The translations under genes were made by a program, and so were the position numbers. A stretch of 64,000 bases of DNA from an uncultured virus (IMG/VR IMGVR_UViG_3300024518_006364). Its lineage: Duplodnaviria; Heunggongvirae; Uroviricota; Caudoviricetes. The stretch lies in IMG/VR virus record IMGVR_UViG_3300024518_006364. The stretch is one strand, 5' to 3'. Below, piece by piece: positions 17,831-60,188 of this stretch. The stretch's first letter is position 1. The number at the start of each line of letters is the position of its first letter. The notes under the pieces were generated by a model, which did no database searches, was not told the DNA's origin, and worked only from the letters and a program-made list of their open reading frames with translations.

Positions 17831-18032
17831 CCAACGAGGAGAATATGGACGAACCGTGCCCCATGTGCGACGCCCCCGTCAGCCCGAAACGAGAACGGTT
17901 CTTCATCAAGCCGAAGGCCAAGGAAAGAGAAGGACCCTACTGCTCCCGCCTCTGTGCCAAACAGGATTCCTGGGGCCCTGCATTCAGGAACGCGCGGGTG
18001 TACAAGGTCCCGCCGAAGAAACGGAGGACTCA

Positions 18033-18587: not shown

Positions 18588-18591
18588 GCAC

Positions 18592-18665
18592 GGGCGCGTA
18601 GCTCAAATGGATAGAGCACCGGACTTCTAATCCGGCGGTTGAGAGTTCGAGTCTCTCCGCGCCCA
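18592..18665 (+). tRNA. tRNA-Arg(TCT), CCA not encoded
   Basis: CCGGA-CTTCTAA-TCCGG. Confidence 0.92.
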
Positions 18666-18693
18666 CGCACAGCACTAACCCCGAAGGGAGTGT

Positions 18694-18770
18694 GGGCGCT
18701 TAGGCCACTTGGTAGAGCCGGGGGACTTAAAATCCCCGTGTGCCGGGTTCGACTCCCGGAGCGCCTACCA
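18694..18770 (+). tRNA. tRNA with Leu(TAA) anticodon but short variable loop
   Basis: GGGGA-CTTAAAA-TCCCC; 5-nt variable loop; CCA end. Confidence 0.85.
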
Positions 18771-25001: not shown

Positions 25002-25595
25002 ATGCAAAAAAGGAAGATAGGGGAACAGGACCTGGGTCGCCTGTTCTTCACCGCTGACCTGCATCTGGGACACGCCAACATCTTGAAGCCCGACTACGCT
25101 GACCGCCCCTGGGACGATGTCGAGGCCATGGACAAGGGCCTGATCGAGGCCTGGAATGCAAAGGTTCCCGAAGAGGGAATCGTGGTCGTCGCTGGCGACC
25201 TGTTCTGGGACGGGCGCCGTGCCCAAGAGTATCTGAAGCAGCTCAACGGACGAATCATCTACGTACTCGGAGACCACGGGGACAAAGTGAACGAAGCGCT
25301 CTTCGAGAGTGTTTACCATCTGTTGTGGCTGAAGATGCCTGGAGACAGGCCCGGCATCTTTGTGAATCACTGGGCCCAGCGACGCTGGCCCAAGGCCCAC
25401 TACGGTTCGTGGCATCTGTTCGGCCATTCACATGGAGAGCTCCCGCCTTGGGGGCGCTCATTCGACTGTGGTGTCGACGACATGAAGGGCGACTACGCTC
25501 CGTTGACCTACTACGAGGTAGCAATGCGGATTGCTGGCATCGAGCAGTCGCCCATGTTCGAGGAAACCACGCATCACGGGAAACGGGGAACGTGA
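25002..25595 (+). CDS. Calcineurin-like metallophosphoesterase
   Basis: Motifs ADLHLGH, AGD, LGDH, NH and GHSH. Confidence 0.88.
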   Translation: MQKRKIGEQDLGRLFFTADLHLGHANILKPDYADRPWDDVEAMDKGLIEAWNAKVPEEGIVVVAGDLFWDGRRAQEYLKQLNGRIIYVLGDHGDKVNEALFESVYHLLWLKMPGDRPGIFVNHWAQRRWPKAHYGSWHLFGHSHGELPPWGRSFDCGVDDMKGDYAPLTYYEVAMRIAGIEQSPMFEETTHHGKRGT

Positions 25596-38461: not shown

Positions 38462-38469
38462 GAGTAAGT

Positions 38470-40070
38470 GTCCTCCACCACAAGGGAACGTGAATGAGTT
38501 TGTGGCTTGGTTGGAGAGGTTACAGTGATAGTGATGTGTTGTCAAGGGAGAATGCGTGCATAATCTCGTTGAAAACAAGAGAGGGAAAGGGAATGATTAT
38601 TGTTGGGGAAAGAGGGAGGGGTGATTGGTTGTATCAAGGTGAATCCGTATTGATGTGCACGTGAACATTAGGGTTTAATCGGGGGTGGAGGGTATTCAAC
38701 GCGTTCGTGCGGGGAGGACATGTATATACACGTAATCCGGTGCGTGACGGGTTGCCATACATATAGGGCAAGGTTGAGGGGAACTGGATACTCTCTATAT
38801 ACTACTACTACTTTCTTAAACCAGTACAATGTAGTAGTAGTAGTAGTATAGGGACGTGGTTTCAAGGGGTTAGGGCTGGACTTTTGCGAGCACTCAAGGA
38901 TAGGCCAGGAGGGAAAGGTGAATAAGGCCAGCAAGGTTGCCCGGAGCAAAGAGTGCATGCCATTGAACGGTTTGGTCCGGCCGTAAGGGCACCAATTACA
39001 CGTTTCTCGCTTGGAGGCCCCGGTGGTGGAGAACAAGGAAACGATGACATCTTGGTGGGTTGTGCCCTGATAAGAGTTATTGGGACATTTCGTCCGCATG
39101 GATAAGGAGGCCAGCCGGGAGGCGCTGTGAGGGACGAACGTGAGCCCACAAGGCCAATGTGGTGTAAGGGGTGGTGGAGAGCACGATCGCGCCCGGGCGG
39201 CCCTGTGAGTGACCCGATTGGCCTAAATTCAACAGACCCACAAACCCACCCGACCGGCGACCGGCCGCGGACCCCGACTCGAGCAGCGTGGTGGTGGCGT
39301 GGTTGTCCTACATCCTCCTACCACAAAGAGGGCCTCCGCTCTCTGGAGACGGATGGAAGAAACTGAACTGACCCCCCAGCCCTCCACCACCGAATTCTCA
39401 CTTGCTCCTGGAAACACAGCCTCCGGCGTGCTCTCCACCACATCGTTCTCCTGGTGTCGGAGAGCGCATCGCCGCAGGCATTATATTGTTGTCCTGGTGG
39501 GGGAGAACGAGGCTTCCTCCCCTCCACCTTGTTGCCCTTGTTGTCCCCAAAACCAAACCGCTCCCCAACACGGGGTCAGCCATGTGGTGGGGAAGACTTC
39601 GTCGACTTCTTCCACCAGGCAGCGTGGTGGTGGTGTGAACAACGTGGAGGAGAGCACGGCGACGTCGAAGACTGGCTGACGAGGAGGACAAGGTGGTGGA
39701 TGGTCCAGGCTCAACTATGAGGAGCGGCAGCGGGTCCCATCTACCTTTAGGACCGCAGAGCGGTGGTCGTCAAAGCCACGGGGGGAGGGTTGCTCTCAAA
39801 AAAATCCCCAAATTTTTACCCAGAATTTTAGGGGCTCTTTTTGACCCCCCTGCTCTCCACCACCCAGAAATTTTGCTGCCCCCGACCCGTTGGGGTCCCC
39901 CACCACATCGAAACGCCGTCAACGACGTTTTCAGCGAAGCTCGGAGGGTTTTCAGGTAGAAGAGAATGCTCTCCACCACCACACTAGTCCGGCGGCAGGG
40001 TTCCGGTGGTGGACAGCGGGATTCTGGTGGCTGACGCGAGGTGTCTCGGTGGTGGAGAGCACTTCATTAC
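38470..40070. other. Non-coding, compositionally distinct region with a repeated 13-mer; candidate origin or packaging/terminus region
   Basis: AT-rich core; inverted (TAC)n/(GTA)n repeat; GTGGTGGAGAGCA copies in both orientations; A/T tracts. Confidence 0.5.
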
Positions 40071-42294: not shown

Positions 42295-42537
42295 CCGAAA
42301 AAATTCGTTAAAGAAGCCCTGACAGCGACCGACTCCCGTCTAATCCGCCCCCACAATCCCCTGCCACCAGAAATGCCCCCTGCGTGGCTTTGTAACGCAG
42401 AACGTCTCCCGCATGGCCGTGGTGGGAGGGGTCTTTACCTGCGGCGGGAGGCGGGGACAAGGGGAGCATCATACCCCGATCGTATCCCCGCCTCTTTTTT
42501 GGGTAGAAGAACATGGACAATAAACATGGAGGTCACG

Positions 42538-43413
42538 ATGAAACGCAATCTCTATCTGACCATCCTGGCGCTGTTCTTCTTCGCGTGCGGCAGCGAGACG
42601 CTCGGCGTTCAGGGTGACGAGGGTGAACCAGGCACAACGGGGCCGACAGGACCCCAAGGCGAACCTGGCTCACAGGGAGCGAAAGGCGCGAAAGGAGATC
42701 CCGGGGCGCCTGGCGAGCAGGGCGCCGAAGGCTTGCAGGGAGCACAAGGCCCGCGCGGGGAACAGGGGCCGCAGGGACTCCCAGGAGCGGATGGACTACC
42801 AGGGCCGACCGGCCCAACGGGTCCGCGCGGTACGAAGGGGGCCTCAGGTTCTGATGGCAGCCCGGGCGCGCAGGGAGAAAAGGGCGACACAGGAGAGAAC
42901 GGTGCCGCGGGCGCCGAAGGCCCGCAAGGTGCGCCGGGATTGCCCGGATTGGACGGATCGACTGTGAAGTGGGTCGATCAGAACGACAAGTACGTCGGGA
43001 CGACCGGGACGCCCACGTCCTCGCACGTTCTCTACTACAATCCCCTCAACGGATACTGGTATCAGTTCAGCGTTCACACCGGGCGAATGGACCTTCCACA
43101 ACTCGACGCATTCCACACCGAGTACGACTGCGGCGGCGCGACATTCTTAGGCAAGTCTGTGCCAGAGGACACGGTGCCACCGAGAGTCGTCTTCCAACGG
43201 TCCTGGTACGCAGACAGTTACCACGTGCGCGAGGACGACGGTCAGATGCGGGAGCAGGGAGGCAACAATGTCTCTCGACGAACCAAGGATGGTTGCATCA
43301 ACGGCAACCATGGCCCGATTGTTCTCGGTCTTCCCGAGAGCGCCGTCACCTCGATCAGCGTTCCCGCGCCTCCCATCGGCATCATCGGTCCGCTCGTTCC
43401 CACCTTTCAGTAA
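42538..43413 (+). CDS. Collagen-like (Gly-X-Y) putative lipoprotein
   Basis: Signal peptide MKRNLYLTILALFFFA-C; about 38 G-X-Y triplets; globular C-terminus. Confidence 0.8.
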   Translation: MKRNLYLTILALFFFACGSETLGVQGDEGEPGTTGPTGPQGEPGSQGAKGAKGDPGAPGEQGAEGLQGAQGPRGEQGPQGLPGADGLPGPTGPTGPRGTKGASGSDGSPGAQGEKGDTGENGAAGAEGPQGAPGLPGLDGSTVKWVDQNDKYVGTTGTPTSSHVLYYNPLNGYWYQFSVHTGRMDLPQLDAFHTEYDCGGATFLGKSVPEDTVPPRVVFQRSWYADSYHVREDDGQMREQGGNNVSRRTKDGCINGNHGPIVLGLPESAVTSISVPAPPIGIIGPLVPTFQ

Positions 43414-47225: not shown

Positions 47226-48947
47226 ATGTCAGAGGAAAAGAAAGAGACCGTGACGGTCTGCGAACAACAGACCATCGGGGGACAGCAGTTCGCGTTCATC
47301 GGTGAGGTCCCGGCCGATTCGCCGAAGGCCAAGGCGGCGGAGGCAGTAAGAGAGGGGTTCCACGCCAAGCTGCGCCACGACGCTGCCAAGGGCGACAAGA
47401 CCGCCAAGGGAGCGCTCAAGTTTCTCAAGGCAGTGAAGCGCATCGGCGAGCCCCCGCGCTGGTGGGAACTGCGGCTCCGTTACCGTGCCTGGAGGCGAAA
47501 GTGTGCAGAGCGCGTCAAGGAGGAAAAGCGCGTCGACGCGTGCCTGACGCTGGGGCTGCACCCGAAGGCAGGGGAGATGCTGAGCGGACTCAGCCAGGTG
47601 ATCTACCAGACCACCATGTTCAACCACTCCTCCGATGCCGAGGAGCGCGCGCAGGCGTTCTACGATGGGCTCAAGCTCGCGCAAAAGCTCATCAGCAAGA
47701 TCAAGCATCCCAAGGACGAGGACTGGGACGCTTACTGGAAGGAGACGCATGATGGCTGAAGCGGTATTCAAGATGCGCCGCACTGACGGCGGCGAGCCCT
47801 TTCTTGAGAAGGAGGACGGGGAGTATCCCGTCGCTTGTCGCACCTGTGCCTGCAACGTGCCCACCACCCCGTTCGACGGGAACCACGGCTTCGACGAACG
47901 CCCGGGGGCACTGAAACATTCCACGATCTACATGTGCCAAGTTTGCTACTCCACGTTGCTCGGAAGCGCGCTGCGCTATCCCGATGGTGGCGTGGGCATC
48001 TTTGACATGGCGCGAGGTCTCGTTGAGTGCACCAACCTCATCCTGGAACAGTTGCGGCATCCGATGCACGTCATCCATGCGCCCGGTGTTGCCAAGCTCC
48101 CGGATGGGGTTGCGGAGAGGATCTTAGCGGAACACAAGAAGGTGGACCCCTGCGCTCGGGGCGCCTGGTTCAACGCGCGGATCTACGTCCGGTTCGGAGC
48201 GCCACCTACCGGATACAAAAACCACATGGACAAGCACAGGGTTGAGGAGACTCTGACCGGTGTCGAGTTCAAGGTGGCCATGGCCAAGGTCGGGTGCCGT
48301 CTGAACAGTATCATCGTTACGCAAGAAGAGGACGACGACATCGTCGGCAACTGGCGGCGCACCTACGACCAGCCCTTGGAGTGGTTCACGTGGGAGCATC
48401 TGACGGCATCGTGGAGGATCACGCTTCCTCGTTACGGGGACGAGCCGCGGGCGCACCTCTTTCGCGATGGGAGCGGGGAGGCGACTTTCGATGTGCCCTC
48501 CCGTGGCACGCGTTCGGAGGAAGATGACGTCGAGGTCGAGAAGCTCGTGCTGAAGTGGGCTGATGGCTACATCGAAAAGGATGGAGAGGAGGAATCGTCA
48601 TGAGTGACATGCACCAGCTCTTCAATGCGCCCGTGACTTGCATCAAGACCGAGTGCGAGAAACACGCTTCCTGCTACTACGGTGGGGGACACATCAAGCC
48701 CAAGAAGTTGGCGGCCATTGCGGGAATCCGCGCCGGGCATTTGGAGGTTTTCTGTGAAGATGTGAAGCTGCCTCCGCCTCCTCCACCCCCAAGCCCTCCG
48801 TCGATCTCTGAGTTCAACGAGTGGGCCAAGAACGCCCAGTGCCTGCACTATGCACCGGACAACTCGTGCTCCAACAGCGAGGGCACCATCTGGTGCGGGC
48901 ACTGCGTCGTTTGTCGAGCGGCAGGGCGCAAGCGGAGGGCGGACTGA
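47226..48947 (+). other. Hypothetical CDSs (47226-47759, 47749-48603, 48600-48947)
   Basis: Coupled ORFs. Confidence 0.55.
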
Positions 48948-49423
48948 TGGGAGATAAGTACGCATTCACAGGAACCCGCAAGGGAATGACCCACCGACAG
49001 ATGCGGGCGCTGATGCTGGAGCTCCTGCACTATTCCCTGGACGGAGGGAATCCGGAACTCCACCACGGCGGATGTGACGAGGGAGGGGATCGCGAAGCAC
49101 ACATCATCGCGCTGGCACTCGGCTTCAGGGTTTACGTGCACCCGTCCACCAACAACGCGCCGCCGGACAAGGCCTACTACAAGTACACCTGTGTCTTTGC
49201 CGAGAACCCGCTGCCTCCGTTGGAACGCAACCACAACGCCGTTGACGGTTCGCACATGCTGTTCGCCACGCCTGCACAGAAAGAAGAGCAGATGCGTTCG
49301 GGGACGTGGGCGACGATTCGCTACGCGCTCGGACGCAACAAGAAGCAACCCGTCTGCGGTCCCCACACGGTCGTCATCATTCATTTCGATGGGACGATCG
49401 AGCGGATGCAGTGCGTTGACTAG
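48947..49423 (+). CDS. SLOG-superfamily (DprA/YpsA-like) nucleotide-binding protein
   Basis: Motifs FTGTR.GMT, HHGG...GGD, RNH..VD and RSGTWATIRYA. Confidence 0.7.
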   Translation: MGDKYAFTGTRKGMTHRQMRALMLELLHYSLDGGNPELHHGGCDEGGDREAHIIALALGFRVYVHPSTNNAPPDKAYYKYTCVFAENPLPPLERNHNAVDGSHMLFATPAQKEEQMRSGTWATIRYALGRNKKQPVCGPHTVVIIHFDGTIERMQCVD

Positions 49424-49436
49424 GGAAGGAGGCAAC

Positions 49437-50884
49437 ATGCCAGTGCCCCAGGAGACGCGGGACAGAGTTTTCGACTTTGCCCTGGCGTGGCGCAAGGCAG
49501 AACTCCGCCTTGCGATCATCATTTACAGGCAAACCACGGGAGAGGTGCCGCACGATCCGGTGACGCGTCAGGCTGCGCAGGAAACCCTGGATGACTGCGA
49601 AAGAGCCCTCCGCATTGTCTTGGACGAGGCGAGGGAGGAAGAGGAGAAGGACGATGGCTAGACCGTACAAGAAGAAGCCCCTCGTGTGCTACCTGATCCT
49701 GGAGAAGACGGCGCGCACCACCAAGGTTAGCGCGGTCCGGAAGACATTCCCCGTCCTCGCGCCCAACCAGATCGCGGTCAAGGTCAGCCTCCAGCTCCCT
49801 GACGGCCTCTTCAAGAAGCCCGCCGCGTCCTTGGTGCTCAATGTCCCGAAGAGCGCGTGCATCGTGCCCGAGATCGAAGGGAAGGTGGAGAAGCCATGAA
49901 GCACATCCGTCTGAACTTGCGGGCTCCCACGGACAACGCGCTTCCCGCCCTAGCAGTAGATGGATACGGTGCGATGGACGTCTATGATGATCTCCACCAC
50001 ACCGTCAGCCTCATCCTCCCCGAGAGCGACGTCGTCCTCGACCTGGATGTATGGGAGGACAAGGAGAGTGGTGGTGTTGGCGTGCAGTTGACGCTTCGGG
50101 GAGGCGAGGCTCTGGAGATCGAGAAGACGCAGGTGGGACACGAACGGCGCCTCAAGTTCGTCGTTCCCCGAAAGGAGGTATTGTGACCGAACTCAAGACC
50201 TACAAGATGGGCACCGCGCTCCCGTTGGAGGGCGAGGTCCTCAACGGCGGGAACGGCATCGACGGTTTCTACTACATCCGCCTCTCCCAGCGCGTCCACC
50301 ACAAGGACCACCAGTGGCGCAGAGGGGTCGTCCTCAAGATTCGCCGCGACGTCCTCAGTGACATCCCGTTCTACGGAGCCGAGTTCGTGCACCACGTCGT
50401 CAACCCGCCGCCCGAGGATAGTCCGGTGTGCAGGGTAATCGCGGATGACCCTCCCCTTCCGGGACTCCGTACCGACACGGACAACATCAAGAAGGGAGAC
50501 ACCCTTGTCTATCGAGGCGAGGACGGACAGGTACTCATCGGAGAGGTCACCCGAATCGTACGTGAGGGACGAGAGGGGCCGCTCAGCATGCTTCATGTCG
50601 AGAGGGAAGGGCGCAGGGATAACATGATCCTGCCCGACCAGTTCCTTGGACATATTCCGTGGTCTACGCAGATCGACAAGGACCTCGTGCACAGGAAGTG
50701 CATCGAGGCCCTCACCGATCGCATCGACACGCTGGAAACGTGGCGCTGGGATACTGCCAAGATGCTCAAGCTCCTCGCGGATGCACTCAAGAAGAGGAAG
50801 ATTCCGATCCCCCTCTTTCCCGGTTGGTACACGTACCTGACAAAGCTCGTCAAGAATCACCCGGGGAACGCCCCCAAGAACTGA
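49437..50884 (+). other. Hypothetical CDSs (49437-49661, 49654-49899, 49896-50186, 50183-50884)
   Basis: Coupled ORFs. Confidence 0.55.
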
Positions 50885-50966
50885 CCCGTTTCCGGTAAAA
50901 GAAACTGTTTCCATGTACCCCCTCTGGGTAGCAAGCAAGAAGTGCGAAAATGAAAAGGAGTGTGTG

Positions 50967-51725
50967 ATGTCCCCGACCAAGAAGAAGGTAACGAAGAAGC
51001 CCGTCAAGCCGGGCTCGCGGGTGAAAATCCCGCAGATGACCGCCGCCGAGAAGAAGGCAGCGGCCAAGAAGACCAAGAAGGCGGCCAAGGACGACAAGGG
51101 CGAGCACATCGCGATCCCGCCGCCCAACATCCTGACGGCCCAGTTCAAGATCCGCTTCAACGCGCCGTACGTGCAGAACGCGTTCAGCAAGAAGGCGCTG
51201 GAGCAGATGGTCTCGACGCAGGAGCAGGGCAGCACGGCGAAGAAGGGCCGCAAGCGCACGGCCAAGAACTTCAAGGAGCTGTACGAGCAGTCGCAGCACG
51301 TCAGCGAGAAGGGCTGGAACGGCATCCCGGCGGCAGCGTTCCGCAACGCGTGCGTCTCGGCCTGCAAGATCTGCGGCTTCGCGATGACGCGGGCCAAGCT
51401 GTCCGTGTTCTGCGTCGCCGACGGCTTCGACAAGCACAGCATGGACCCGCTGGTCAAGATCACCAAGGGCAAGCCCCGCATGATCAAGAGCATGGTCCGC
51501 AACTCCGGCCCCGCTCGCCCGACGGACGTCCGCGCCCGCGCGATGTTCAACCCGGGCTGCGAGGCGACGGTCACGCTCCAGTTCGACGCCGACCAGTTCA
51601 CGCTGGACGACGTCACCAACCTGCTCGCCCGCGCGGGGATGCAGGTTGGCATCGGAGAGGGACGTCCCGATTCCCCCATGTCCTGCGGCATGGGTTGGGG
51701 CACGTTCGACCTTCTCAACAAGTAG
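50967..51725 (+). CDS. Cas7/RAMP-like protein 1 (putative RNA-binding backbone)
   Basis: GIPAAAFRNAC helix motif and C-terminal G-rich loop AGMQVGIGEGRP..GMGWGTF; AAGGAG RBS; strong codon bias. Confidence 0.75.
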   Translation: MSPTKKKVTKKPVKPGSRVKIPQMTAAEKKAAAKKTKKAAKDDKGEHIAIPPPNILTAQFKIRFNAPYVQNAFSKKALEQMVSTQEQGSTAKKGRKRTAKNFKELYEQSQHVSEKGWNGIPAAAFRNACVSACKICGFAMTRAKLSVFCVADGFDKHSMDPLVKITKGKPRMIKSMVRNSGPARPTDVRARAMFNPGCEATVTLQFDADQFTLDDVTNLLARAGMQVGIGEGRPDSPMSCGMGWGTFDLLNK

Positions 51726-51740
51726 CCCAACCACGATGAT

Positions 51741-51778
51741 GCGAAGACCCCCTTGCTGCGAGGCAGGGGGGTCTTCGC
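51741..51778 (+). promoter_or_regulatory. Strong intergenic hairpin without a U-tract
   Basis: GCGAAGACCCCCTTGC-TGCGAG-GCAGGGGGGTCTTCGC. Confidence 0.7.
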
Positions 51779-51794
51779 GTCTGGGGAGGAAACA

Positions 51795-52391
51795 ATGAGT
51801 ACTGCCGCCGTGCAGGAACTAAGCATTCCGCGCCTCAACATCCGGAATACGGAGTTCGATATCCGCCTTCGGGAGCCGGGGACGAAGATTCTTTTTCCGA
51901 AGAAAGGGGGATCAGGCGAATTTGATAAGAATTACGAACTCCGCCGTTTTTCACGCACGAGGATCTTTCGTGGGATCCCCTCCCTTTATTTTCACCATGC
52001 ACTTTATCTGGCGGCAAGATTGTGTGGATACATAGGATTTCCTCGGGGAGCGTCCTGGTACTCCCTGCGGGGCATCGTGGGTATCGACACTTGCATCCAC
52101 AAGTATTGCTCAGTTGCGCGAATGACCATGGTGCGCTTGTCTGAGGGAGAGCCGCAGAAGAGAATTTACCCCTGTCGCATCACGCGAGGGGATCGCGTTG
52201 TAGAGGAGAGGAAGATACCGAAGTGGTTTCTTGGTCCTGACTGCAAGGTGAATCTCCATGTTTATTTCGATGCAGATCAGTTCACGTTGGGTGAAGTTCG
52301 CACCCTCATGGAGGTGGCAGGAGCTGAGATTGGCATTGGAGATTTACGTCCGCAGGGTGGCGGGGACAACGGACGCTTCAAGATCGTCTGA
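51795..52391 (+). CDS. Cas7/RAMP-like protein 2 (divergent paralog)
   Basis: Shares GIP...F, FDADQFTL and AG..IGIGD.RP..GG..GRF with 50967-51725. Confidence 0.7.
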   Translation: MSTAAVQELSIPRLNIRNTEFDIRLREPGTKILFPKKGGSGEFDKNYELRRFSRTRIFRGIPSLYFHHALYLAARLCGYIGFPRGASWYSLRGIVGIDTCIHKYCSVARMTMVRLSEGEPQKRIYPCRITRGDRVVEERKIPKWFLGPDCKVNLHVYFDADQFTLGEVRTLMEVAGAEIGIGDLRPQGGGDNGRFKIV

Positions 52392-52402
52392 GAGGAGAGG
52401 GA

Positions 52403-52846
52403 ATGACAGCAGCAGAGAAAGCGAAGGAACGAGATCTGGTTCTCGAGGAGCTCGAGCTCATTCGCAAGAACCATCGTGGTCTCTTGCAGCCCCGACACGT
52501 CGTCGAGTTCGCCAAGGATCCGAATACTGCGCTGCACCACCGCTTCGAGTGGGACAACACGCACGCAGCGGATCTGTACCGCCTGGAGCAGGCTCGCCAC
52601 ATCGTCCGGGTGTATGTCGAAATGATACCCGGCACGTCCCAGCCCGTCCGTGCGTTCGTGTCACTGAAACGTGATCGCGCCGCAGGCAGGGGCTACCGGG
52701 CGATGGTCAATGTGCTCGCCAGCGATGCCCTGCGGGAGCAACTCCTCGAAGAGGCCCGCGACGACATGGAAGTGTTTGTTGCCAAGTACGAGGTTCTGAA
52801 GGAAGTCGCCGGAGTCGTGAGGGCGATGAAGAAGCACAAGAAGTAG
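52403..52846 (+). CDS. Accessory protein of the RAMP/array locus
   Basis: LELI..G.L.P..VVEFA.DP..ALH..FEWD..AA..YRL.QAR pattern; its stop lies 4 nt before the array. Confidence 0.7.
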   Translation: MTAAEKAKERDLVLEELELIRKNHRGLLQPRHVVEFAKDPNTALHHRFEWDNTHAADLYRLEQARHIVRVYVEMIPGTSQPVRAFVSLKRDRAAGRGYRAMVNVLASDALREQLLEEARDDMEVFVAKYEVLKEVAGVVRAMKKHKK

Positions 52847-52850
52847 ACGC

Positions 52851-55800
52851 GGCAGGCCCGACTTGGAATGGCCTGGGCTGGCGAGGAAACGTCAGGCTAG
52901 ACTGGTCGAGGAGCGGCAGGCTCGGCTAGGCATGGACCGTCGAGACCCGTTGTTGCAAGACGCGGCGAGGCATGGCTGGCCTTGGTTCGGCAGGCATGGC
53001 ACTCCACGCCCTGCCGCGGTGCGGACGTGCGCGACTAGGCAAGGAAAGGCAGGCCACGCACTGCCCGGTTTGGGCAGGCACAGCTTGGCGTGGTCGGGCA
53101 GGCAAGACGCCGCATGGTGGGGTACCGCATTCCTCGGTGTCCCAAGGCGGCGCGACGCGAGGCAGGAGAGGCTGTGCATGGCGCGGTTTGCCGTGGTGCG
53201 ACAGACCCGGCTTGGCGGGACAAGGCGTGGATAGGCAGGCGACGCACGTATTCGCGAGGCTAGCTTTGGGAAGACATGGTCAGGCAGGCAAGGAATCGCA
53301 AGGCTCGTCAGCGTTAGGATTGTCCGGGAATGGTCCGGCAGGCGTGGCAAGTTAAGGCATCGAGGTGTGGGACACGGCAAGGCAGGCACGGCGAGGACTC
53401 GTGCGTCATTGTGAGGCTGCTCCGCGAGAGGCGAGGCAGGCATGGTAACGATGGTGCGGTGGCGAGAGGTCGCGACCGCGAGGCGAGGCAGGCTCCGTTA
53501 GTCTCGGGCGGAAAGGTGCGCCTCGGCACGGCATGGCAGGATCGGTGAGGCTAGTCCGCGAGATGCGGGACAGCGCTTCGCCGGGCGTGGCAGGCGACGC
53601 CAGTCTGCTCAAGTAACGGCGGCGAAAGATTGGGCAAGGCAGGCGACGATACGCGGGGCAAGCGGCGGAAAGGCGTGGTTTGGTGCGGCAGGCGTTGCTA
53701 GTCCCGTCACGGCACGGAGTGGAAAGTCCCGGTTAGTCGGGGCAGGCGAGGTAGCTCATGTGGACGCAAGCCCACGAGGGGCGCGGCAGGCAAGGCATCG
53801 TGAGGTACGGTGGCGACGGCCCAGGAAGCACATGCTCTGGTGTCGCCAGGTACGGCAGGCAAGGCACGGCGCGGTGCGTCGGCGATCGGCGCGTCCTCGA
53901 TCGGCCAGGCACGGCAGGCAACGCAAGTCCGCGCATCACTAGGCGCGGAGGGGCGACGTTAGGCAGGCGGCGCATGGCGAGCCTACGCCTGACACGGTTC
54001 TGCAAGACATGGTGGGGCAGGCGAGCGTTCGCTTGGTTCGGTGCGGCGTGGCGTGATTCGTACCGGCTCGGCCGGAGAGGCACGGCTGCGATGGACATCG
54101 TGGGGTAAGCCCCGGATGGGCAGGCGACGCTGTGCGAGGCGAGGCTTTGATCGTGATGGCGTGGCGCGACGTGGCTCGCGGCGGTCTGGCAGGCAAGTCG
54201 GCGCAAGTCACGGCACGAAGTGGCGCGGTTAGGCAGGCACGGCAAGTTCACGCAAGATCCGGAATGCCATCCCACGGCGAGGTCAGGCAGGCGTCTCTAG
54301 TCGACGCGTGGAAGGCCAAGGCAACTTCGGGCGAGACGCGGCAGGTCCGGCGGTACTAGGAATGCCATTGCTGGGCGCGACACGCATTGCCAAGGTGTTG
54401 CAGGCCCCGAGTGGATAGGAATGGCAAGTCTGGGCTTCGTGAGGTTAGGCGTGGATCGGCAGACTAGGCAACACGCTGTGAGGTCGCGACAGGCACGGCT
54501 GGGCTCGGCAGGCAACGCCTCTCTCGGCTATGCTTGACGGGTCCAGACAAGATTTGGCGTGGCAGGCTACGCTTCGAGTTGCTCGACAAGCCGGGTCCGG
54601 GATCGGCCGGATCTGGTAAGGCGGGGCAGGAAAGGCCCGGCAACTCAACGCCCGAAAAGGCGGGGCACGGGTGACGCACGTTGTGGCAGGCAAGGACCAG
54701 CACGGCAAGTCCAGGAAGCGTCCGGATAGGCAAGGCAGGCATGGACTGCTCTGGCGAGGCACGGCGTTGCGTCGTGTGTTCGGGCAAGGCATGGAATGCC
54801 CAGGAGGGGCAGGCGCGGACCGAATAGGTAGTGCGAGGCGTGCCGTCGGCCGGTAGCAAAAGGCACGGCAGGCGTGGCGAGTCCCGGAACGGAACCAAAG
54901 GCAAGGCAGGGCGGGGTCTGGCAGGCGAGGCTGCGTTTGGAGGGGTGAGACACGGTGTCTCCAGGTGGGGCATGGCATGGTGTGGCAGGCACGTCAACGC
55001 GAGGCTTCGAATGCCGAGGCGTAGCGAGACTAGACGTGGCACGGCAGGCGGAGCGGGTCCACGCGTGGCGCGGAGCGGTTGCGACCGATCTGGCAGGATC
55101 GGCAAGACGCGTCTAGGAATGGTTCTCCCAGGCATGGAGAGGAGCGGCAGGCAAGGCTGCGACTGCAACTGCAAGGCTAGGCGAGGCGTGGATGGGCAGG
55201 CTAGTAGTCGCGGGGCGAGGCTGGGTCACGAACAGTCAGCCCCGGCTTGGCAGGTTCGGCGTGGATCGACAAGGACTGGCAGGCAAGCCTCCGTAAGGAG
55301 TGACAAGGCAACCCGTTGGCACGGTACGGCAGGCTCGGCGGAAGGCGTCGAGAGGCTGGTCTCGGATACGATAGGCATGGAAAGCCGCGGTGGGACAAGG
55401 CAGGCAAGGATCGCTTTGCTGGCAATGGCAAGGGCTGGTCAGGCAGGCATTGAGAGCCTTGTCTCGGCTCGGCTTGGACGGGTGACGCATGGCAGGCTAC
55501 GTTACTCAACGTATGCCAGGACACCGCGAGACACGGTTAGGCAGGAAAGGCTCTGAGAGGCCGGGCGTGGAGTGGACGGTCCAGGCTGGGCATGGCACGT
55601 CGAGGCAGGACTCGCATGACGAGTCTTGGCGCTACGGAGCCAGGTGCGGAATCGAGAGGCACGGCAGGCGGCGCAAGAGAGCGCAAGGCTGGACCGCGAC
55701 AGGAATGGCGAGGCAGGCCCCGAAACGGTGGGGCAGGCGAGGATTGTTGAGGACGGCCATGGGTTGTCCCGGAGCGTCCACGCGAGACACGGCAGGCATG

Positions 55801-55947
55801 GCATTGCCAGGACGGGCGAGTCTACGCTACGTGGGTCCAGGCAGGCAAGGCACGGACGTGCATGTACAGGCAAGTCCTCGAGAGACGAGGTCTCGCAGGT
55901 TGCGCGAGACGAGGAGCGACTTGCATTGGCACGGCGTCGAAAGACAC
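52851..55947 (+). repeat. Non-coding array of ~55 units, each GGCA + n x (GGN-NN pentamer); candidate guide-RNA array (not CRISPR)
   Basis: GGCAGG delimiters at 52851, 52915, 52989, 53048, 53097, 53161 and onward. Spacings of 64, 74, 59, 49, 64 fit 5n+4. Confidence 0.9.
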
Positions 55948-55948
55948 G

Positions 55949-55976
55949 GGGCCCCTCTTCGGAGGGGCTCTTTTTT
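55949..55976 (+). terminator. Intrinsic terminator closing the array
   Basis: GGGCCCCTC-TTCG-GAGGGGCTC-TTTTTT. Confidence 0.85.
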
Positions 55977-55985
55977 GGAGGATAG

Positions 55986-56315
55986 ATGCCCTGGGCAATG
56001 TTCACAAAGAGAACGAACCCACCGAAATTAACCTGGCTACGTCGACACCTTGACATGGCCGGAATCCCCAACCGACTCAGCGGAGAGAGCTTTCACGCTC
56101 CGATCCTCCAAGTGCCCGAGGAGGACCTGGATGCAGCGTGGAAGATTCTCACCCCCGTGGACGACATCCCCGATGACGATGAGCAGTTCAATGAGGGCCT
56201 CCGGCGTGTCCCGGGTTGCCCCCAACGCTGTTGGACCAAGGGCGCGCTGCACGTGTGCAAACTCGGACAACCCGGATATTTCTGTCCCCGTTGCTGGAGA
56301 AGACTAGAGACATAG
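55986..56315 (+). CDS. Hypothetical protein
   Basis: GGAGG RBS. Confidence 0.6.
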   Translation: MPWAMFTKRTNPPKLTWLRRHLDMAGIPNRLSGESFHAPILQVPEEDLDAAWKILTPVDDIPDDDEQFNEGLRRVPGCPQRCWTKGALHVCKLGQPGYFCPRCWRRLET

Positions 56316-56327
56316 AAGAGGTGAACA

Positions 56328-57110
56328 GTGGTAGGAATCCCCCATTTTCTGAAATCGAAAAGTCAGCTCAAGCGTGAGCGCGAATACGAGAAGCGCAAGG
56401 CCGAGGAGATGCTCGGGAAGGCCATCCCGTTCGACCCCAAGTTCAAGTGGCAGAAGGAAGTCTGTTTCGACGCCAATTCCTACAACGCGTGGCTGAAGAA
56501 GTTCTTCCTCTTCCCAGATCTCGAGGCAGTCACGCCGAAGACGATGGACCCGTTGGACGGTCCGCACATCGCCAGTCCGAGCGGAGATCTGGTCTACGTT
56601 CACCGAACATTTCCCAAGGCAACGCGCCTGGGGACCGTGTACGGAAAGCACACAGGGTCGGTGTGGTTTACGGGTCCGGTGACGTTTCCGGTGCTTCTTC
56701 GCAGGCGCCAGGGACACATGGAACTTCGCGATGAGAACGTCTGGATGTCACTCACTCCGTTCGAGGTCTTCTCTCTGCGCGGAGGAACCAGATACGCCAA
56801 AGGCCACACTGTCATCGCAGGCCTCGGACTGGGCTACCAGCTGATCCAGGTCTGCAAGCGGAAGAAGGTCAAGCGTGTGACGTTGGTCGAGATCGAGAAG
56901 GAGCTCGTTGACTGGTTGCTTCCAGTGATTCGTCCTCACTTGAACGGCATGAATGTGAAGGTCGTCATCGGCGATGCCAGGAAGCTCGTTCCGAAGATGA
57001 CAGCCGACTCGGCTCTGATCGATATCGACGCAGGATACGGAGGCAACTACATCGCGGAGTGCCCCAAGATCGGACACGTTTGGGTCTGGGGTTCGACTTA
57101 CGCAGACTGA
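56328..57110 (+). CDS. Class I SAM-dependent methyltransferase-fold protein (spermidine synthase-like)
   Basis: Motifs VIAGLGLGY, VTLVEIE and VVIGDA. Confidence 0.75.
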   Translation: MVGIPHFLKSKSQLKREREYEKRKAEEMLGKAIPFDPKFKWQKEVCFDANSYNAWLKKFFLFPDLEAVTPKTMDPLDGPHIASPSGDLVYVHRTFPKATRLGTVYGKHTGSVWFTGPVTFPVLLRRRQGHMELRDENVWMSLTPFEVFSLRGGTRYAKGHTVIAGLGLGYQLIQVCKRKKVKRVTLVEIEKELVDWLLPVIRPHLNGMNVKVVIGDARKLVPKMTADSALIDIDAGYGGNYIAECPKIGHVWVWGSTYAD

Positions 57111-57122
57111 CAAGGAGGGAAC

Positions 57123-57806
57123 ATGTCTCAGTTGATCGTGTCCCTGCGTGAGATCGCGGGGGCCTACACTGACTGTCGCCGCCACTATCACAACCTGCTG
57201 CACATCCAGCAGATGTTCCAAGATGCCAAGAGATTCGGAATTCACCTGATCGACGTACAAGTCGCCGCCATCTGGGGACACGACATTGTCTACGTTCCCG
57301 GCGCCCCCGACAACGAAGAACAGAGCGCAGATCTCACGTGCTCCCTCCTTGCCGAGGAGGGTGCGTGTCGCATCGTGACCGATGCCGTCCGCGAGATCAT
57401 TCTCTGCACCAAGAACCACGTGCCCACCTGTGACGCTGCGAAGGACGTCATCGATCTCGACCTGGCTCCGCTTGGCTATGACAACGAGGCTTACTGTGCA
57501 GGTTCTTTGAACGTGTACAAGGAAGCCAAGGCGTTCATTCCCGATCTGGACGATGGGGAGTACGTCGGAAAACGCATTCAGTTTCTCGCTGCGTACCTGG
57601 CCAAGCTCCCGCTGTACACCACTGTTTGGGGCAGCGAGGCGTTCGATCGTCAGGCCCGGGTCAACATGAAGATCGAGCTCAGGACCCTCCAGGAATGGTT
57701 CAAAGGAGGCGGAGGGATCCTGGACGACATCGAGGACTACGAAAGTCTTTTCACGGTTTTCAGGGACCTCGCAAGGATCGAGAGAGGTAAGGAGGAAGAG
57801 GCATGA
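57123..57806 (+). CDS. HD-superfamily phosphohydrolase
   Basis: Motifs RHYHNLLH, GHDIVY..NEEQSA and IDLDL. Confidence 0.8.
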   Translation: MSQLIVSLREIAGAYTDCRRHYHNLLHIQQMFQDAKRFGIHLIDVQVAAIWGHDIVYVPGAPDNEEQSADLTCSLLAEEGACRIVTDAVREIILCTKNHVPTCDAAKDVIDLDLAPLGYDNEAYCAGSLNVYKEAKAFIPDLDDGEYVGKRIQFLAAYLAKLPLYTTVWGSEAFDRQARVNMKIELRTLQEWFKGGGGILDDIEDYESLFTVFRDLARIERGKEEEA

Positions 57807-59351
57807 CCGAGTCCGCCGACGATCAACGTTTCCGGATGCTCCAAGAGCGTCTGGAAGAGGCGACGCGTGCCCTCGAGACGGCCAATCTCAACCGAACTGC
57901 CCTACGAGGAAAACTGACCTTAGCCAAGAGCGACAAGGAAGAAGCTGAGAAACAGCTCGCACAGATAAAGGAAAACATCGGGCGCGGCAACAAGGAGCAG
58001 ACGCGCATCCGAGGTGAGTTTCAGGAGCGCGCTGAGACCGCGGAAGACCTCATCCACGAGGGTCTCGTCTTTCCCTGGGACCACCCGGTCTTTGAGGGGT
58101 GGGAGGTTATCGAGTTCACACGCCACCAGGACTACGACGGTGACCTCTGTGTCATCGTTACGCTCTACAACGAGTTCGACAACAACGCCTTCCGCGAGGT
58201 CGGCGTGAGCGACGAGAGCGTTTGGATGGAGCTCATGCAGCGCGTCTTCAAGTGGGGAAAGGGGCTGGCGCAATGAACGAGCTGCTCGTGTACGGATTGC
58301 TCATATTCTGCGTGGTCTCCGTTGCGTGCCACGTCGCCACGTTCCTCTACTGGAATCGGAGCATCGCCAAGGTGGGCAGGCTTCGAATGAGGTGCTGGGC
58401 CCTTGCTCGACGTCTGGCGCCACACGACCCCGGCTACGTACAGGAGTACTGGGGTGAGATGATGATTCGAAGCCCTGATGGGGGATGGGAGAAATACGAT
58501 GCCTGATCACGAGTACGATGTCGAAATGTGCCGGACCTACTACGGGCATGCCACGCTCAGGGTCACCGCGCCCAACATGAAGAAGGCCAAGGTGAAAGCG
58601 CTCGACACACCGAACGTTGAGTACAGCGGACTCGATGGGGACGCTCCCGACGTGGTCATCAGCATGCGCCGCCTGCCTGATAAGCCGAAAGCCAAGAAGC
58701 CGCCGAAGATGGTCGAGGGCTCGGACGAGTGGGAAAAGGCGGCCAACAAGGTCGCCCGTTGTGGGGTTGTACTCATTTCTTGCAGGCACTGCGGCTATCC
58801 AGTGCATGAGGGCTATACCTGCTCCGGGTGTGGCTCGAGCTCGCCCCGCTGATTGCTTCCACGTGTTCTGTCGCGTATCCTGTCCCCGGAGGCTGAAATG
58901 GGATGGGTACTACTTGCTGTTCTCGTCGGGATGTTCGGCTGGGCCGGATACCTGATGTTCTGGAAGGACGGATGAAAAACTGCCTTTGGCGTTTTCTTGC
59001 TCCTCCGATAGCGGTCGGCGCGTTTCTCATCGCCGGGGCGCTGCTGTCCCCGCTGTTCGTGTACCACGTTCTCTGGGGCAGCGATGAGGAAGGCACTTCA
59101 CCGTGAACTGGAAGAAAGGGCCCATGATCGACGAGTTCCCCACGTTCATTTGCAACACGCGCTTTTGCGTCATGCCTGTCCCCCGAAAGGGGGGCTGGTT
59201 CGTAGTCGATCTGGACGACGAGCATGAGGACCTGGGCCCGTTCGAGTCTGCCGGGGATGCGATGGAGGCATTCGAGTTTCCTGAGGACTTGAAGGATCTG
59301 ACTGAAGATGAGGATGATATTCTGGTTGTTGTCGATACGCCCGATTCTTGA
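57803..59351 (+). other. Hypothetical CDSs (57803-58276, 58273-58506, 58499-58852, 59103-59351)
   Basis: Coupled ORFs. Confidence 0.55.
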
Positions 59352-59374
59352 TACCCTCGGGACCGGAGGATGCG

Positions 59375-59713
59375 ATGTTGACTTTCACGAAGGTCGGACA
59401 GCTGCGGACGCCGCCCCCCGGCTCCAAGATTGGCCCGTTGAACCAGCCGTCCAAGGCGACTTTTTCCCAGAGGGGGCTGGAAGGAAAGCCGATGTCCGTG
59501 CTCAAGCCGGGGGCAGGTTCGGCCAGGCCCTCGAAGCGGGTATCGCCCAACCAGGCGCGCGCTCAAGCTGCGCACGCGGCCCCGGCTGCCTCGGCCCCAC
59601 CGAAGAAGAGGACTCCTCCGACGGAGACGCAGAAGGCGAACAGGCAGGCGCAACGAAAAGCCAAGCCCGACATCCGCCGCGCACAACAAGGCCAGAGCTA
59701 CGCAACAAGATAG
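59375..59713 (+). CDS. Basic low-complexity protein with N-terminal LTFTKVGQ tag
   Basis: GGAGG RBS; TTGTCG-N17-TACCCT promoter; downstream terminator. Confidence 0.65.
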   Translation: MLTFTKVGQLRTPPPGSKIGPLNQPSKATFSQRGLEGKPMSVLKPGAGSARPSKRVSPNQARAQAAHAAPAASAPPKKRTPPTETQKANRQAQRKAKPDIRRAQQGQSYATR

Positions 59714-59765
59714 TTAGAGAAGCAGTCGGACTGCTTTTCTTTTGCCACCAAAGAGGGAGGTCGTG

Positions 59766-60188
59766 ATGGCTTTGGACATGGAGTGCACTGTGATGGCGAA
59801 GCTGACATTCGACAAGGAGCAGATCGAGGCGGACTACGATATTGCCAAGACACGGGGCGATGAGATCATCAAGGCGCTCGGGCTAGAAGATCTCGGAATC
59901 GGTGAGCCTGTCACCAAGGACGACCCACTGACGTTCAACCTGAAGTGCTACCTTTGCACCACGAGCGTGCAGGTAGCAATCTCTGCCGCCGTAGGCGTCG
60001 CCTTCGCGCCCCTCGCCGCCGGAGGTGAGATCGCAGCGGCAGCAGCCGAAACGCTCGGCGCGGCGATCTGCGTCGTCATCGGCATCACCGCGAACGCCGT
60101 GGCCAACTTCGTCCTGGGCATCATGCAGGACTGTTCCGGACCGGGGGAGCTCTGCCAGGAGCTGGCGAACAAGGCGTGCAACTGCTAA
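59766..60188 (+). CDS. Cys-rich hydrophobic protein (saposin-like or bacteriocin-like)
   Basis: CYLC..C..C..P.ELC..L...CNC bracketing Ala/Gly-rich helices. Confidence 0.5.
   Translation: MALDMECTVMAKLTFDKEQIEADYDIAKTRGDEIIKALGLEDLGIGEPVTKDDPLTFNLKCYLCTTSVQVAISAAVGVAFAPLAAGGEIAAAAAETLGAAICVVIGITANAVANFVLGIMQDCSGPGELCQELANKACNC

What the first reader, a model, noticed from the sequence alone, without database searches (positions are those of the whole stretch)
52851..55947. Internal grammar of the array: a 4-nt GGCA register shift punctuates strict 5-nt periodicity
Unit 1 parses as GGCA ggccc gactt ggaat ggcct gggct ggcga ggaaa cgtca ggcta gactg gtcga ggagc (64 nt). Unit 3 parses as GGCA ggcat ggcac tccac gccct gccgc ggtgc ggacg tgcgc gacta ggcaa ggaaa (59 nt). 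Most delimiter spacings I counted are 44, 49, 54, 59, 64, 69 or 74 nt, i.e. 5n+4, with a few exceptions. Positions 1-3 of each pentamer stay near GGC (variants GAC, CGC, GTC, TGC, GGT, GGA), while positions 4-5 vary freely. Variant delimiters also occur (GACA 53200, GGCC 54070, TGCA 54399). Register is conserved while sequence is not, which a decaying satellite would not readily produce. Inference: the 4-mer is the processing or boundary signal.
Basis: seen in the sequence. Interest (0 to 1): 0.85.

Follow-up and report, generated by a model that had tools for sequence, protein, structure and literature searches.

The report
Phage VIPR guide-RNA array, staggered type
This 3.1-kb stretch is a very long array of guide RNAs of a VIPR system, a phage RNA-guided DNA-silencing system first described in 2026, so the pattern is real and functional but its kind is already known.

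Summary
Window 52851-55947 (+) has strict 5-nt periodicity. A 4-nt step, GGCA in 53 of 63 cases, shifts the phase by -1 about every 55 nt. Positions 1-3 of the pentamers are constrained and positions 4-5 are near maximal entropy. The NN strings of the units are no more alike than shuffles.

It is not a satellite. It matches the vrRNA array of a VIPR system (Viral Interference Programmable Repeat; bioRxiv 10.64898/2026.04.26.720920, April-June 2026). Directly upstream on the same strand lie:
- a Vipr-type minimal RAMP (50967-51725), whose family profile hits PDB 36pp 'SUSP1 Vipr protein' at E 5.3e-13 and whose model matches Cas7-family folds;
- a divergent second vipr copy (51795-52391);
- a conserved 147-aa accessory protein (52403-52846).

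The 4-nt step corresponds to the paper's 'staggered arrays' of vrRNAs that overlap by 1 nt. The paper does not list these among the architectures confirmed by RNA sequencing.

The same grammar and gene pair recur in IMG/VR loci and in three cultured phages.

Features particular to this locus: the longest array I measured (about 60 guides), weak GGY conservation (42%), and two vipr copies.

Verdict: a new member of a known kind. No targets and no RNA evidence were obtained.

The parts
50967..51725 (+). vipr (B1): Vipr-type minimal RAMP, 252 aa in the database form (an upstream ATG at 50913 would give 270 aa), with a Lys-rich N-terminal tail. Its stop codon is TAG.
   Evidence: The profile of alignment A1 hits PDB 36pp_D 'SUSP1 Vipr protein' at E 5.3e-13, over profile positions 18-209 and chain residues 2-187 of 202. 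The AlphaFold model has pLDDT 81.5. It matches Cas7-family RAMPs (Csm3, Cmr4, type VII Cas7): 55 chains at E<=1e-3, TM only 0.27-0.51. The family has 3905 members at E<=1e-3 among 4405 candidates, all unnamed.
51795..52391 (+). vipr' (B2): divergent second Vipr copy, 198 aa, with a shortened G-loop (GIGDLRPQGGGDNGRF) and its own GGAGG Shine-Dalgarno and ATG.
   Evidence: 24% identical to B1 over 200 aa, E 6e-18. It has no relative closer than 34% identity among 1.84 billion representative proteins; the other hits are ordinary Viprs at E>=4e-8. The junction sequence was read.
52403..52846 (+). Accessory gene (family A, phrog_15946, 147 aa): candidate vap. Conserved LHxxFxWDDxxAAxxxRLxQAR motif. 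Its stop codon is TAG.
   Evidence: phrog_15946 at E 3.2e-20, function unknown. Present in 23 of the 28 array loci that have >=2.5 kb on both flanks, always on the array's G-rich strand. The model has pLDDT 91. No fold match: Foldseek found none at E<=1e-3 and the best VIA Z is 5.6. No Pfam hit.
52851..55947 (+). Staggered vrRNA array: about 60 units, each a run of GGYNN-type pentamers, separated by 4-nt GGCA steps. 50 of 63 units have 8-14 pentamers.
   Evidence: No Rfam family at E<=1, so no hammerhead ribozyme and no known structured tail. No tandem-repeat call of note from TRF.
55948..55977 (+). Intrinsic terminator closing the array: 10-bp stem, 7 of them G-C, then a T run.
   Evidence: No other + strand terminator-like site was found between 50000 and 55947, and no sigma-70-like promoter in 50000-56600. 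The array begins 5 nt after the stop of gene A.

Best explanation
The stretch is the guide-RNA (vrRNA) array of a phage VIPR system, of the 'staggered' architecture.

Proposed mechanism:
1. Transcription (inferred). The array is probably transcribed with or just after the vipr-vipr'-accessory genes on the + strand and ends at the terminator at 55948-55977.
2. Filament assembly (shown for the E. coli phage SUSP1 system, inferred here). One Vipr protomer binds each pentamer and sequesters the GGY triplet. A filament forms that presents the two variable NN bases of every pentamer.
3. Target reading (shown for SUSP1, inferred here). The NN bases pair with double-stranded DNA, skipping every third target base, so each unit specifies a target of roughly 8-14 dinucleotides. 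Binding silences transcription of competing mobile elements.
4. Role of the 4-nt GGCA step (my inference). In the published structure G1 and G2 are held by one protomer and Y3 by the next. A filament that runs past a 4-nt step would meet GCN instead of GGY. Cooperative assembly is therefore favourable only within one unit, which cuts the transcript into about 60 independent guides that abut or overlap by one base.

Whether a nuclease then cleaves at GGCA is not shown.
For: - Protein. The B1 family profile matches the solved SUSP1 Vipr over nearly its full length (E 5.3e-13). The G-loop GIGEGRP aligns to SUSP1 GVGDWRP. The arginines that align with the published contacts R138 and R179 are kept.
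- Fold. The predicted fold matches Cas7-type RAMPs.
- RNA grammar. GGY/NN pentamers with low entropy at positions 1-3 and about 1.95 bits at positions 4-5. Most units have 8-14 repeats, against 9-16 in the paper.
- Guide-like diversity. NN strings are at shuffle level.
- Staggering. 63 four-nt steps in the window. In 59 arrays there are 668 four-nt steps against 5709 five-nt and 104 other steps, and at least 510 of the four-nt steps are GGCA. This fits the paper's 1-nt-overlap arrays.
- Gene context. Of the 28 array loci with full flanks, 24 carry vipr, 23 carry family A and 23 carry both, all co-oriented with the array.
- Cultured phages. Cyanophage Cy-LDV1, Mycobacterium phage Quico and Gordonia phage ODay have the same vipr + A pair and a GGCNN array with GGCAGGC junctions.
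- No self-target. 0 of 47 guides exceed their shuffles in the window outside the array, and the best NN match is 0.78. The paper likewise reports no self-targeting.
- Codon-like NN usage. NN frequencies correlate with codon positions 1-2 of the window's genes in sense orientation (r 0.62) and with none of the five other phasings (r -0.53 to 0.05). The other arrays give the same result. This fits the published rule that the skipped base falls on the wobble position.
- No intra-unit structure. Folding energy is no lower than in pentamer-permuted controls (mean z -0.18), as expected for RNA held single-stranded in a filament.
Against: - No RNA data exist for this locus. All 8 listed runs are DNA. 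Transcription, processing and Vipr binding are therefore all inferred.
- No natural target was found. The only target searches I ran were local and gave nothing above shuffles.
- Only 42% of pentamers are strict GGY, and only 15% at the third pentamer of a unit. Related arrays have a median of 75%. Some units may therefore bind Vipr poorly or be decaying.
- In B1 a Gly stands where SUSP1 Vipr has W178, which stacks on G2.
- Foldseek TM-scores to Cas7 proteins are modest, 0.27-0.51.
- Family A could not be matched to any published vap, because I had no published vap sequences. It is not related to the protein that follows vipr in phage wV8 (E 0.11).
- The codon-like NN signal is weak in likelihood terms: -2.758 against -2.773 per NN for a uniform model.
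Confidence: 0.85

Rival explanations
1. The array works as one long unprocessed RNA that carries many Vipr filaments in successive registers, or as a store or sponge for Vipr, rather than being cut into about 60 separate guides.
For: There is no spacer, tail or ribozyme between units. With a 1-nt overlap, two neighbouring full-length guides cannot both come from one transcript. Staggered arrays are not among the architectures the paper says were confirmed by sRNA-seq. There is a single terminator at the 3' end and no promoter-like site inside.
Against: The fig. S18 legend speaks of 'individual processed vrRNAs'. In the system that has been studied, vrRNAs are discrete molecules of about 100 nt. 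The near-invariant A of GGCA (53 of 63 steps) is not needed for a mere register shift, which suggests a specific site.
Confidence: 0.08
2. The array is a decoy: vrRNAs that redirect or titrate a competitor's Vipr, as described for satellite-borne and orphan vrRNAs, rather than guides for the phage's own Vipr.
For: The abstract of bioRxiv 10.64898/2026.10.15.759431 reports standalone vrRNAs that redirect VIPR machinery, and hundreds of orphan vrRNAs in phages. The unusual size and the weak GGY conservation of this array are compatible with a non-standard role.
Against: The array lies 5 nt downstream of a complete vipr-vipr'-accessory operon on the same strand, so it is not an orphan. The same arrangement is the rule in 23-24 of 28 loci.
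Confidence: 0.04
3. It is a neutral, decaying nested repeat: a pentanucleotide microsatellite inside a minisatellite of about 55 nt, with no function.
For: The unit lengths differ by multiples of 5, which pentamer slippage would also produce. GGY conservation is low.
Against: NN strings of neighbouring and distant units are at shuffle level, while GGCAGGC is exact 46 times. Only 3 off-register steps occur in 3.1 kb. TRF finds no array. The grammar recurs with the same genes in phages of cyanobacteria, actinobacteria and marine hosts. Contigs of four metagenome runs are identical.
Confidence: 0.02
4. It is an RNA sponge or scaffold for a ring-shaped protein that reads triplets at 5-nt spacing, as TRAP does. 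This was my first working idea.
For: A conserved triplet plus a 2-nt spacer, and 11-12 triplets per unit, resemble the 11 (G/U)AG repeats of TRAP sites (recalled, not from a call).
Against: No TRAP-like gene was found. The adjacent conserved protein is a RAMP homologous to a solved Vipr. Unit length varies from 8 to 14 repeats, which does not fit a ring of fixed size.
Confidence: 0.01

Closest known systems
VIPR 'staggered vrRNA arrays' (bioRxiv 10.64898/2026.04.26.720920 = PMC13142463, fig. S18)
   Same: GGY/NN pentamer repeats. Neighbouring guides overlap by 1 nt, which equals a 4-nt step. The array lies beside a vipr gene and one accessory gene, and the system is phage-borne.
   Different: I could read only the legend, not the figure or data S4. 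I therefore cannot say which of the seven types this is, or whether the paper's example uses GGCA. This array is the longest of the 59 I measured: 3,090 nt against 1,652 for the next. It has weaker GGY conservation, and the locus has two vipr copies, the only one of the 24 vipr-bearing full-flank loci to do so.
Type II VIPR of Escherichia phage SUSP1 and Felixounavirus relatives (PDB 36pp)
   Same: Homologous Vipr (E 5.3e-13). wV8 gp95 scores E 2.2e-17 against the B profile in a search of four proteins. Both have pentamer vrRNAs with variable NN and a two-gene operon with flanking non-coding RNA.
   Different: In wV8 the triplet is mostly GGT. Each vrRNA ends in a conserved structured tail, and the vrRNAs are few and separate (sequence read; paper text). 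Here the triplet is GGC, there is no tail, and about 60 units abut. The accessory proteins are unrelated: wV8 gp94 against family A gives E 0.11. The G-loop is GIGEGRP plus an insertion, instead of GVGDWRP.
Class 1 CRISPR backbone (Cas7/Csm3/Cmr4 on crRNA)
   Same: RAMP fold with a G-loop. One protomer binds per fixed RNA step in a helical filament, and an array of guides lies beside the gene (paper text).
   Different: The step is 5 nt, not 6. The target is read through 2 of every 5 guide bases. There are no repeat-spacer units, no Cas6-type hairpin repeat, and no cas1/cas2 or other cas genes in the family scans, which covered 38 ORFs of the window, not every ORF.
TRAP-binding (G/U)AG repeats of Bacillus trp leaders
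   Same: A conserved triplet with a 2-3-nt spacer, about 11 repeats (recalled, not from a call).
   Different: The protein family, the triplet and the scale all differ. No TRAP-like gene was seen.

Membership tests
VIPR system | Vipr protein: a small single-RRM RAMP with a G-loop and a thumb, homologous to characterised Viprs | tested here: met
   Profile A1 against PDB 36pp_D 'SUSP1 Vipr protein': E 5.3e-13, nearly full length. The model matches Cas7-type RAMPs, 55 chains at E<=1e-3. The G-loop GIGEGRP and the thumb Arg are conserved; W178 of SUSP1 is Gly here.
VIPR system | vrRNA made of tandem YNNGG (GGY/NN) pentamers with conserved GGY and hypervariable NN, 9-16 per guide | tested here: met
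   Entropy 1.01/1.26/1.43 against 1.95/1.95 bits. 50 of 63 units have 8-14 pentamers. NN strings are at shuffle level. Weak point: strict GGY in only 42% of pentamers. The paper itself notes 'frequently observed internal degeneracy'.
VIPR system | An adjacent vipr-accessory (vap) gene | tested here: inconclusive
   A conserved 147-aa gene (family A) accompanies vipr and the array in 23 of 28 loci and in three cultured phages. I had no sequences of the published vap1-6 to compare. Family A is not related to the gene that follows vipr in wV8.
VIPR system | vrRNAs are expressed and bound by Vipr | not testable with these tools
   No RNA run holds the stretch. Only DNA contigs could be laid.
VIPR system | NN dinucleotides match natural DNA targets under the 1-nt-skip (xNN) rule, with no self-targets | tested here: inconclusive
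   No self-target in the window: 0 of 47 guides above their shuffles. No enrichment for 399 guides against 675 kb of fetched loci: >=0.85 NN match in 23 observed against 22 shuffled. NN usage resembles codon positions 1-2 (r 0.62). No public collection was searched with the rule.
VIPR staggered array architecture | Consecutive vrRNAs overlap by 1 nt, so the end of one marks the start of the next, with no tail or ribozyme between them | tested here: met
   63 four-nt steps, 53 of them GGCA, against 3 steps that are neither 4 nor 5 nt. No conserved bases flank the step beyond the GGY register. No Rfam match.
VIPR type II (SUSP1-like) | An invariable structured 3' tail (pseudoknot) after each repeat tract; vap1 | tested here: not met
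   Units abut without any non-repeat segment. There is no excess folding. The accessory protein is unrelated to wV8 gp94.
CRISPR array | Direct repeats of 25-40 nt alternating with unique spacers, plus cas1/cas2 or an effector operon | tested here: not met
   The only conserved element is 7 nt long. TRF and Rfam find nothing. No cas families appear in the PHROG or Pfam scans of the 38 window ORFs tested.

The most novel reading that the evidence does not exclude
In staggered VIPR arrays the GGCA junction may be a host-independent punctuation mark read by a protein of the system itself, rather than by host RNases. Candidates are the conserved accessory family A or, in this phage, the orphan second Vipr copy acting as a specialised end or cap subunit.

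This locus, with two diverged RAMPs, one accessory gene and about 60 abutting guides, would then show an early division of labour among RAMPs. That is the step the VIPR authors postulate between a single-RAMP viral system and multi-RAMP CRISPR effectors.

What does not exclude it:
- GGCA is kept in phages of cyanobacteria, actinobacteria and a marine host.
- The A of GGCA is not needed for a mere frame shift.
- Family A accompanies these arrays in 23 of 28 loci, whereas the tailed type II system carries an unrelated accessory gene.
- B2 has no close relative anywhere.
Probability: 0.12. Interest if true: 0.7.

Novelty: new member of a known kind. Interest (0 to 1): 0.4.

Why it matters
That validates the scan, but the kind is no longer new.

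What this locus adds:
- It is a natural example of the least characterised VIPR architecture, the staggered array. The paper does not list this architecture among those confirmed by RNA sequencing.
- It has by far the largest guide repertoire I measured, about 60 guides.
- It sits on a contig of about 200 kb found in seawater metagenomes, so probably a marine jumbo phage.
- It carries a duplicated, fast-diverging vipr.

It would be a good test bed for three questions: how guide boundaries are set without a tail or ribozyme, whether degenerate GGY triplets are tolerated, and what a phage does with 60 guides.

The census also links one accessory family (phrog_15946) to this architecture. It shows the module in cultured, tractable phages (Mycobacterium phage Quico and relatives, Gordonia phage ODay, Cyanophage Cy-LDV1), where the boundary question can be tested at the bench.

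Tried and rejected
- Rfam at E<=1 on 52000-56500: no family.
- Megablast of 48000-60000 against phage records: no match.
- TRF: only two short 15-nt repeats.
- Own genome: none is held.
- TRAP-like ring-binding and hairpin-array ideas: dropped. Folding of units against pentamer-permuted controls gave mean z -0.18, with 4 of 48 units below -2. For 80 units drawn at random from the other arrays the mean z was 0.05, with 5 below -2.
- Coding reading: the many ORFs listed across the array are what a high-GC stretch gives. A 5-nt period is incompatible with coding.
- Target hunting: local scans only, both at shuffle level. I did not search the public collections with xNN patterns.
- RNA evidence: no RNA holder is listed.
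- Unit gain or loss between samples: none seen. Contigs of runs X1, X3, X4 and X5 are identical where they cover the array. One low-depth joint in a single X4 contig, with only 22 nt on its shorter side, and several loose ends come from other GGCNN arrays in the same metagenomes.
- Family A fold: Foldseek found nothing at E<=1e-3. VIA wide gave a best Z of 5.6 to a designed protein, plus scattered winged-helix/HTH-type rows at Z 3.3-4.5 for residues 1-72, below the level the tool calls meaningful. The ESM Atlas returned only unnamed viral clusters.
- B1-B2 complex prediction: no verdict (score 0.24, mark 0.32).
- P0141, a 2180-aa hit of B2 with six matched stretches, is a glycine-rich calcium-binding-repeat protein and not a multi-Vipr fusion.
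- TAG read-through across the window is uninformative in this GC-rich sequence.
- VIPR type number: not assignable. Figs 5A, S16-S18 and data S4 were not visible to me. The supplement PDF text does not name the type with staggered arrays.
Full report
**What is there.** Window 52847-55947 lies between the stop codon of a 147-aa ORF (52403-52846) and a strong + strand intrinsic terminator (55948-55971 plus a T run). It is G-rich on the + strand: GC skew about +0.22-0.24, GC 65-67%, against a skew mostly within about ±0.1 in the rest of the window (one other 1-kb bin, 38001-39000, reaches +0.27).

Identity autocorrelation is 0.40 at lag 5 against 0.22-0.25 at lags 1-3. The peak drifts to 5n-1 near lag 54 and to 5n-2 near lag 110. 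That means one -1 phase shift per roughly 55 nt.

GGCAGGC occurs 46 times in the array on the + strand. The window holds 57 on both strands, against 14.75 +/- 3.45 in shuffles. Of the 54 spacings between GGCAGG sites, 41 are 5n+4.

A dynamic-programming parse gives 568 five-nt steps, 63 four-nt steps and 3 others. 53 of the four-nt steps are GGCA.

Entropy at pentamer positions 1-5 is 1.01, 1.26, 1.43, 1.95 and 1.95 bits. The same parse on shuffled sequence gives about 1.7, 1.7, 1.9, 1.9 and 1.9 bits and many off-register steps.

The NN strings of 47 clean units are no more alike than dealt-out NN (0.419 against 0.417), and neighbours are no exception at 0.410.

**It is a family, with constant neighbours.** Of these, 58 carry a G-skewed array with 5-nt periodicity and at least three GGCAGG. 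With the window that makes 59 arrays. The rest are chance or other repeats.

Across the 59 arrays the parse gives 5709 five-nt, 668 four-nt and 104 other steps. At least 510 of the four-nt steps are GGCA.

BLAST clustering of the flanking ORFs gave two families:
- A: about 150 aa, which includes the window's 52403-52846.
- B: about 210-230 aa.

With profiles of both, 24 of the 28 loci that have >=2.5 kb on both flanks carry B, 23 carry A and 23 carry both. All are on the strand on which the array is G-rich. The order is B-A-array, B-array-A or array-B-A.

The window has B1 (50967-51725), a second divergent copy B2 (51795-52391), A, and then the array. It is the only locus of the 24 with two B genes.

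**Identification.** Pfam has nothing for A or B. PHROGs gives only families of unknown function, phrog_4652 and phrog_15946.

B ends in a glycine-rich loop (GIGEGRPDS..GMGWGTF) of the RAMP kind. The B profile hits one solved protein, PDB 36pp 'SUSP1 Vipr protein', at E 5.3e-13 over nearly its whole length. The AlphaFold model of B1 (pLDDT 81.5) matches Csm3, Cmr4 and type VII Cas7 chains. Foldseek gives 55 chains at E<=1e-3 and probability 0.98-1.00 for the chains listed, but TM-scores of only 0.27-0.51.

A literature search led to three 2026 preprints:
- bioRxiv 10.64898/2026.04.26.720920 (also PMC13142463). I read the Results, the Discussion, Methods sections 18, 20 and 26, passages found by term search, and text passages of the supplement PDF. 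I saw no figures.
- 10.64898/2026.04.26.720927. I read the abstract, section 5 and passages.
- 10.64898/2026.10.15.759431. I read the abstract and outline only.

These papers describe VIPR systems. A phage-borne minimal RAMP, Vipr, oligomerises one protomer per repeat on vrRNAs made of 9-16 YNNGG repeats. Only the NN dinucleotides pair with double-stranded DNA, skipping every third target base, and binding silences competing phages and satellites.

The papers define seven types and several array architectures. [quoted passage not shown] Two 5-nt registers that overlap by one base are exactly a 4-nt step. Searches for 'vrRNA' with 'staggered', and for 'pentanucleotide' with 'RAMP', 'guide RNA' and 'phage', found no other source.

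**How it most likely works.** The following is shown for SUSP1 and inferred here. G1 and G2 of each GGY are held by one protomer and Y3 by the next. The residues named in the paper are H17, D177, R138, W178 and R179. In B1 the aligned residues are Asn, Glu, Arg, Gly and Arg.

My inference is that a filament which continues past a 4-nt step would meet GCN instead of GGY. Each register is therefore favourable only within its own unit, and the step sets the guide boundary without any tail or ribozyme.

Several observations fit this reading:
- There is no conserved context beyond the GGY register on either side of GGCA|GGC.
- No Rfam family matches.
- Units fold no better than pentamer-permuted controls.

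The near-invariant A is not explained by a frame shift alone. It may mark a recognition or cleavage site, but that is open.

The array starts 5 nt after the stop of gene A. It has no promoter-like site of its own and a single terminator at its end. Co-transcription with the operon is therefore likely, but inferred.

**Evidence on guide function.** No self-target exists in the 61 kb of the window outside the array: 0 of 47 guides exceed their 40 shuffles. The paper reports the same for its systems.

399 guides from all arrays, scanned against 675 kb of fetched loci, give no excess. NN matches of >=0.85 number 23 observed against 22 shuffled. This is uninformative, because the loci come from unrelated samples.

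Indirect support comes from NN usage. NN frequencies correlate with codon positions 1-2 in sense orientation (r 0.62) and with no other phasing, both in the window and in the other arrays. The likelihood gain over a uniform model is small.

No RNA run holds the stretch. Contigs of four seawater metagenome runs carry the array without a single difference where they cover it. One of the four may be the source sample.

**How this locus differs.**
1. Size. The array is 3,090 nt with about 60 units. The next longest of the 59 arrays is 1,652 nt.
2. Degeneracy. Strict GGY makes up 42% of pentamers, against a median of 75% (range 33-100%) in the other 58 arrays. It is 79% at the first pentamer of a unit, 15% at the third, and about 60% at the tenth and eleventh. 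The register is nevertheless kept.
3. Two vipr copies. B2 is 24% identical to B1, has a shortened G-loop, and has no close relative among 1.84 billion representative proteins.
4. It is not type II. In the Felixounavirus wV8 the Vipr homologue (E 2.2e-17) is followed by an unrelated 146-aa protein. Its few vrRNAs use GGT and end in a conserved tail.

Family A remains of unknown fold and function. The paper says that vaps are predicted DNA-binding proteins or enzymes. I could not compare sequences.

**Cultured carriers of the same module.** Three cultured phages carry vipr, A and a GGCNN array with GGCAGGC junctions:
- Cyanophage Cy-LDV1: g34, g33, and a 225-nt array between them.
- Mycobacterium phage Quico: genes 57 and 58, with the array upstream.
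- Gordonia phage ODay: genes 19 and 20, with the array between them.

A tblastn search with family A found 32 phage records, 27 from Mycobacterium phages and 5 from Gordonia phages.

**Verdict.** The pattern is real and is under selection. It is explained by a system published in 2026, so this is a new member of a known kind. Three things remain open: whether staggered arrays are physically processed and by what, what the 60 guides target, and what the second Vipr copy and family A do.

Noticed in passing
window 9344-18770: A cluster of 14 tRNA genes, all on the + strand, which fits a large (jumbo) phage. One, at 11089-11164, has the anticodon CTA (ARAGORN labels it tRNA-Pyl). It is a potential amber suppressor.
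   Followed up: partly
window 51723-51797: The stop codon of vipr (B1) is TAG, and vipr' (B2) lies in the same reading frame 27 nt further on with no other stop between. Amber suppression by the phage's own tRNA(CTA) would therefore give a two-RAMP fusion of about 490 aa. However, B2 has its own GGAGG Shine-Dalgarno and ATG at 51795. An inverted repeat (51743-51752 / 51767-51776, seen in sequence only) lies between the genes. Gene A also ends in TAG. A window-wide TAG read-through test was uninformative.
   Followed up: partly
window 38500-38900: An intergenic, AT-richer and G-skewed stretch (GC 0.535, GC skew +0.27 in the 38001-39000 bin) with an imperfect palindrome built of TACTAC / GTAGTA runs. 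It is possibly a divergent promoter region or an origin.
   Followed up: no
L056:3811-5462 (- strand of the locus): In this 1.65-kb array a roughly 35-nt segment that repeats the 3' end of the upstream gene A, plus the start of the array, recurs several times inside the array. This suggests array growth by duplications that include the gene-array junction.
   Followed up: no
window 42373-43413: A collagen-repeat protein (Pfam Collagen, E 8.7e-21) that matches PHROG tail-fibre families. Together with ThiF-like (1937-2638), phosphoesterase (25002-25595) and phosphohydrolase (57123-57806) genes, these are the only ORFs given a functional label among the 38 ORFs scanned in this window.
   Followed up: no
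Read laying loose ends at window 53375-53813 (runs X1, X4): Contigs in the same seawater metagenomes carry other GGCNN arrays that align only for 20-35 nt. Other VIPR-bearing elements therefore co-occur with this phage.
   Followed up: no
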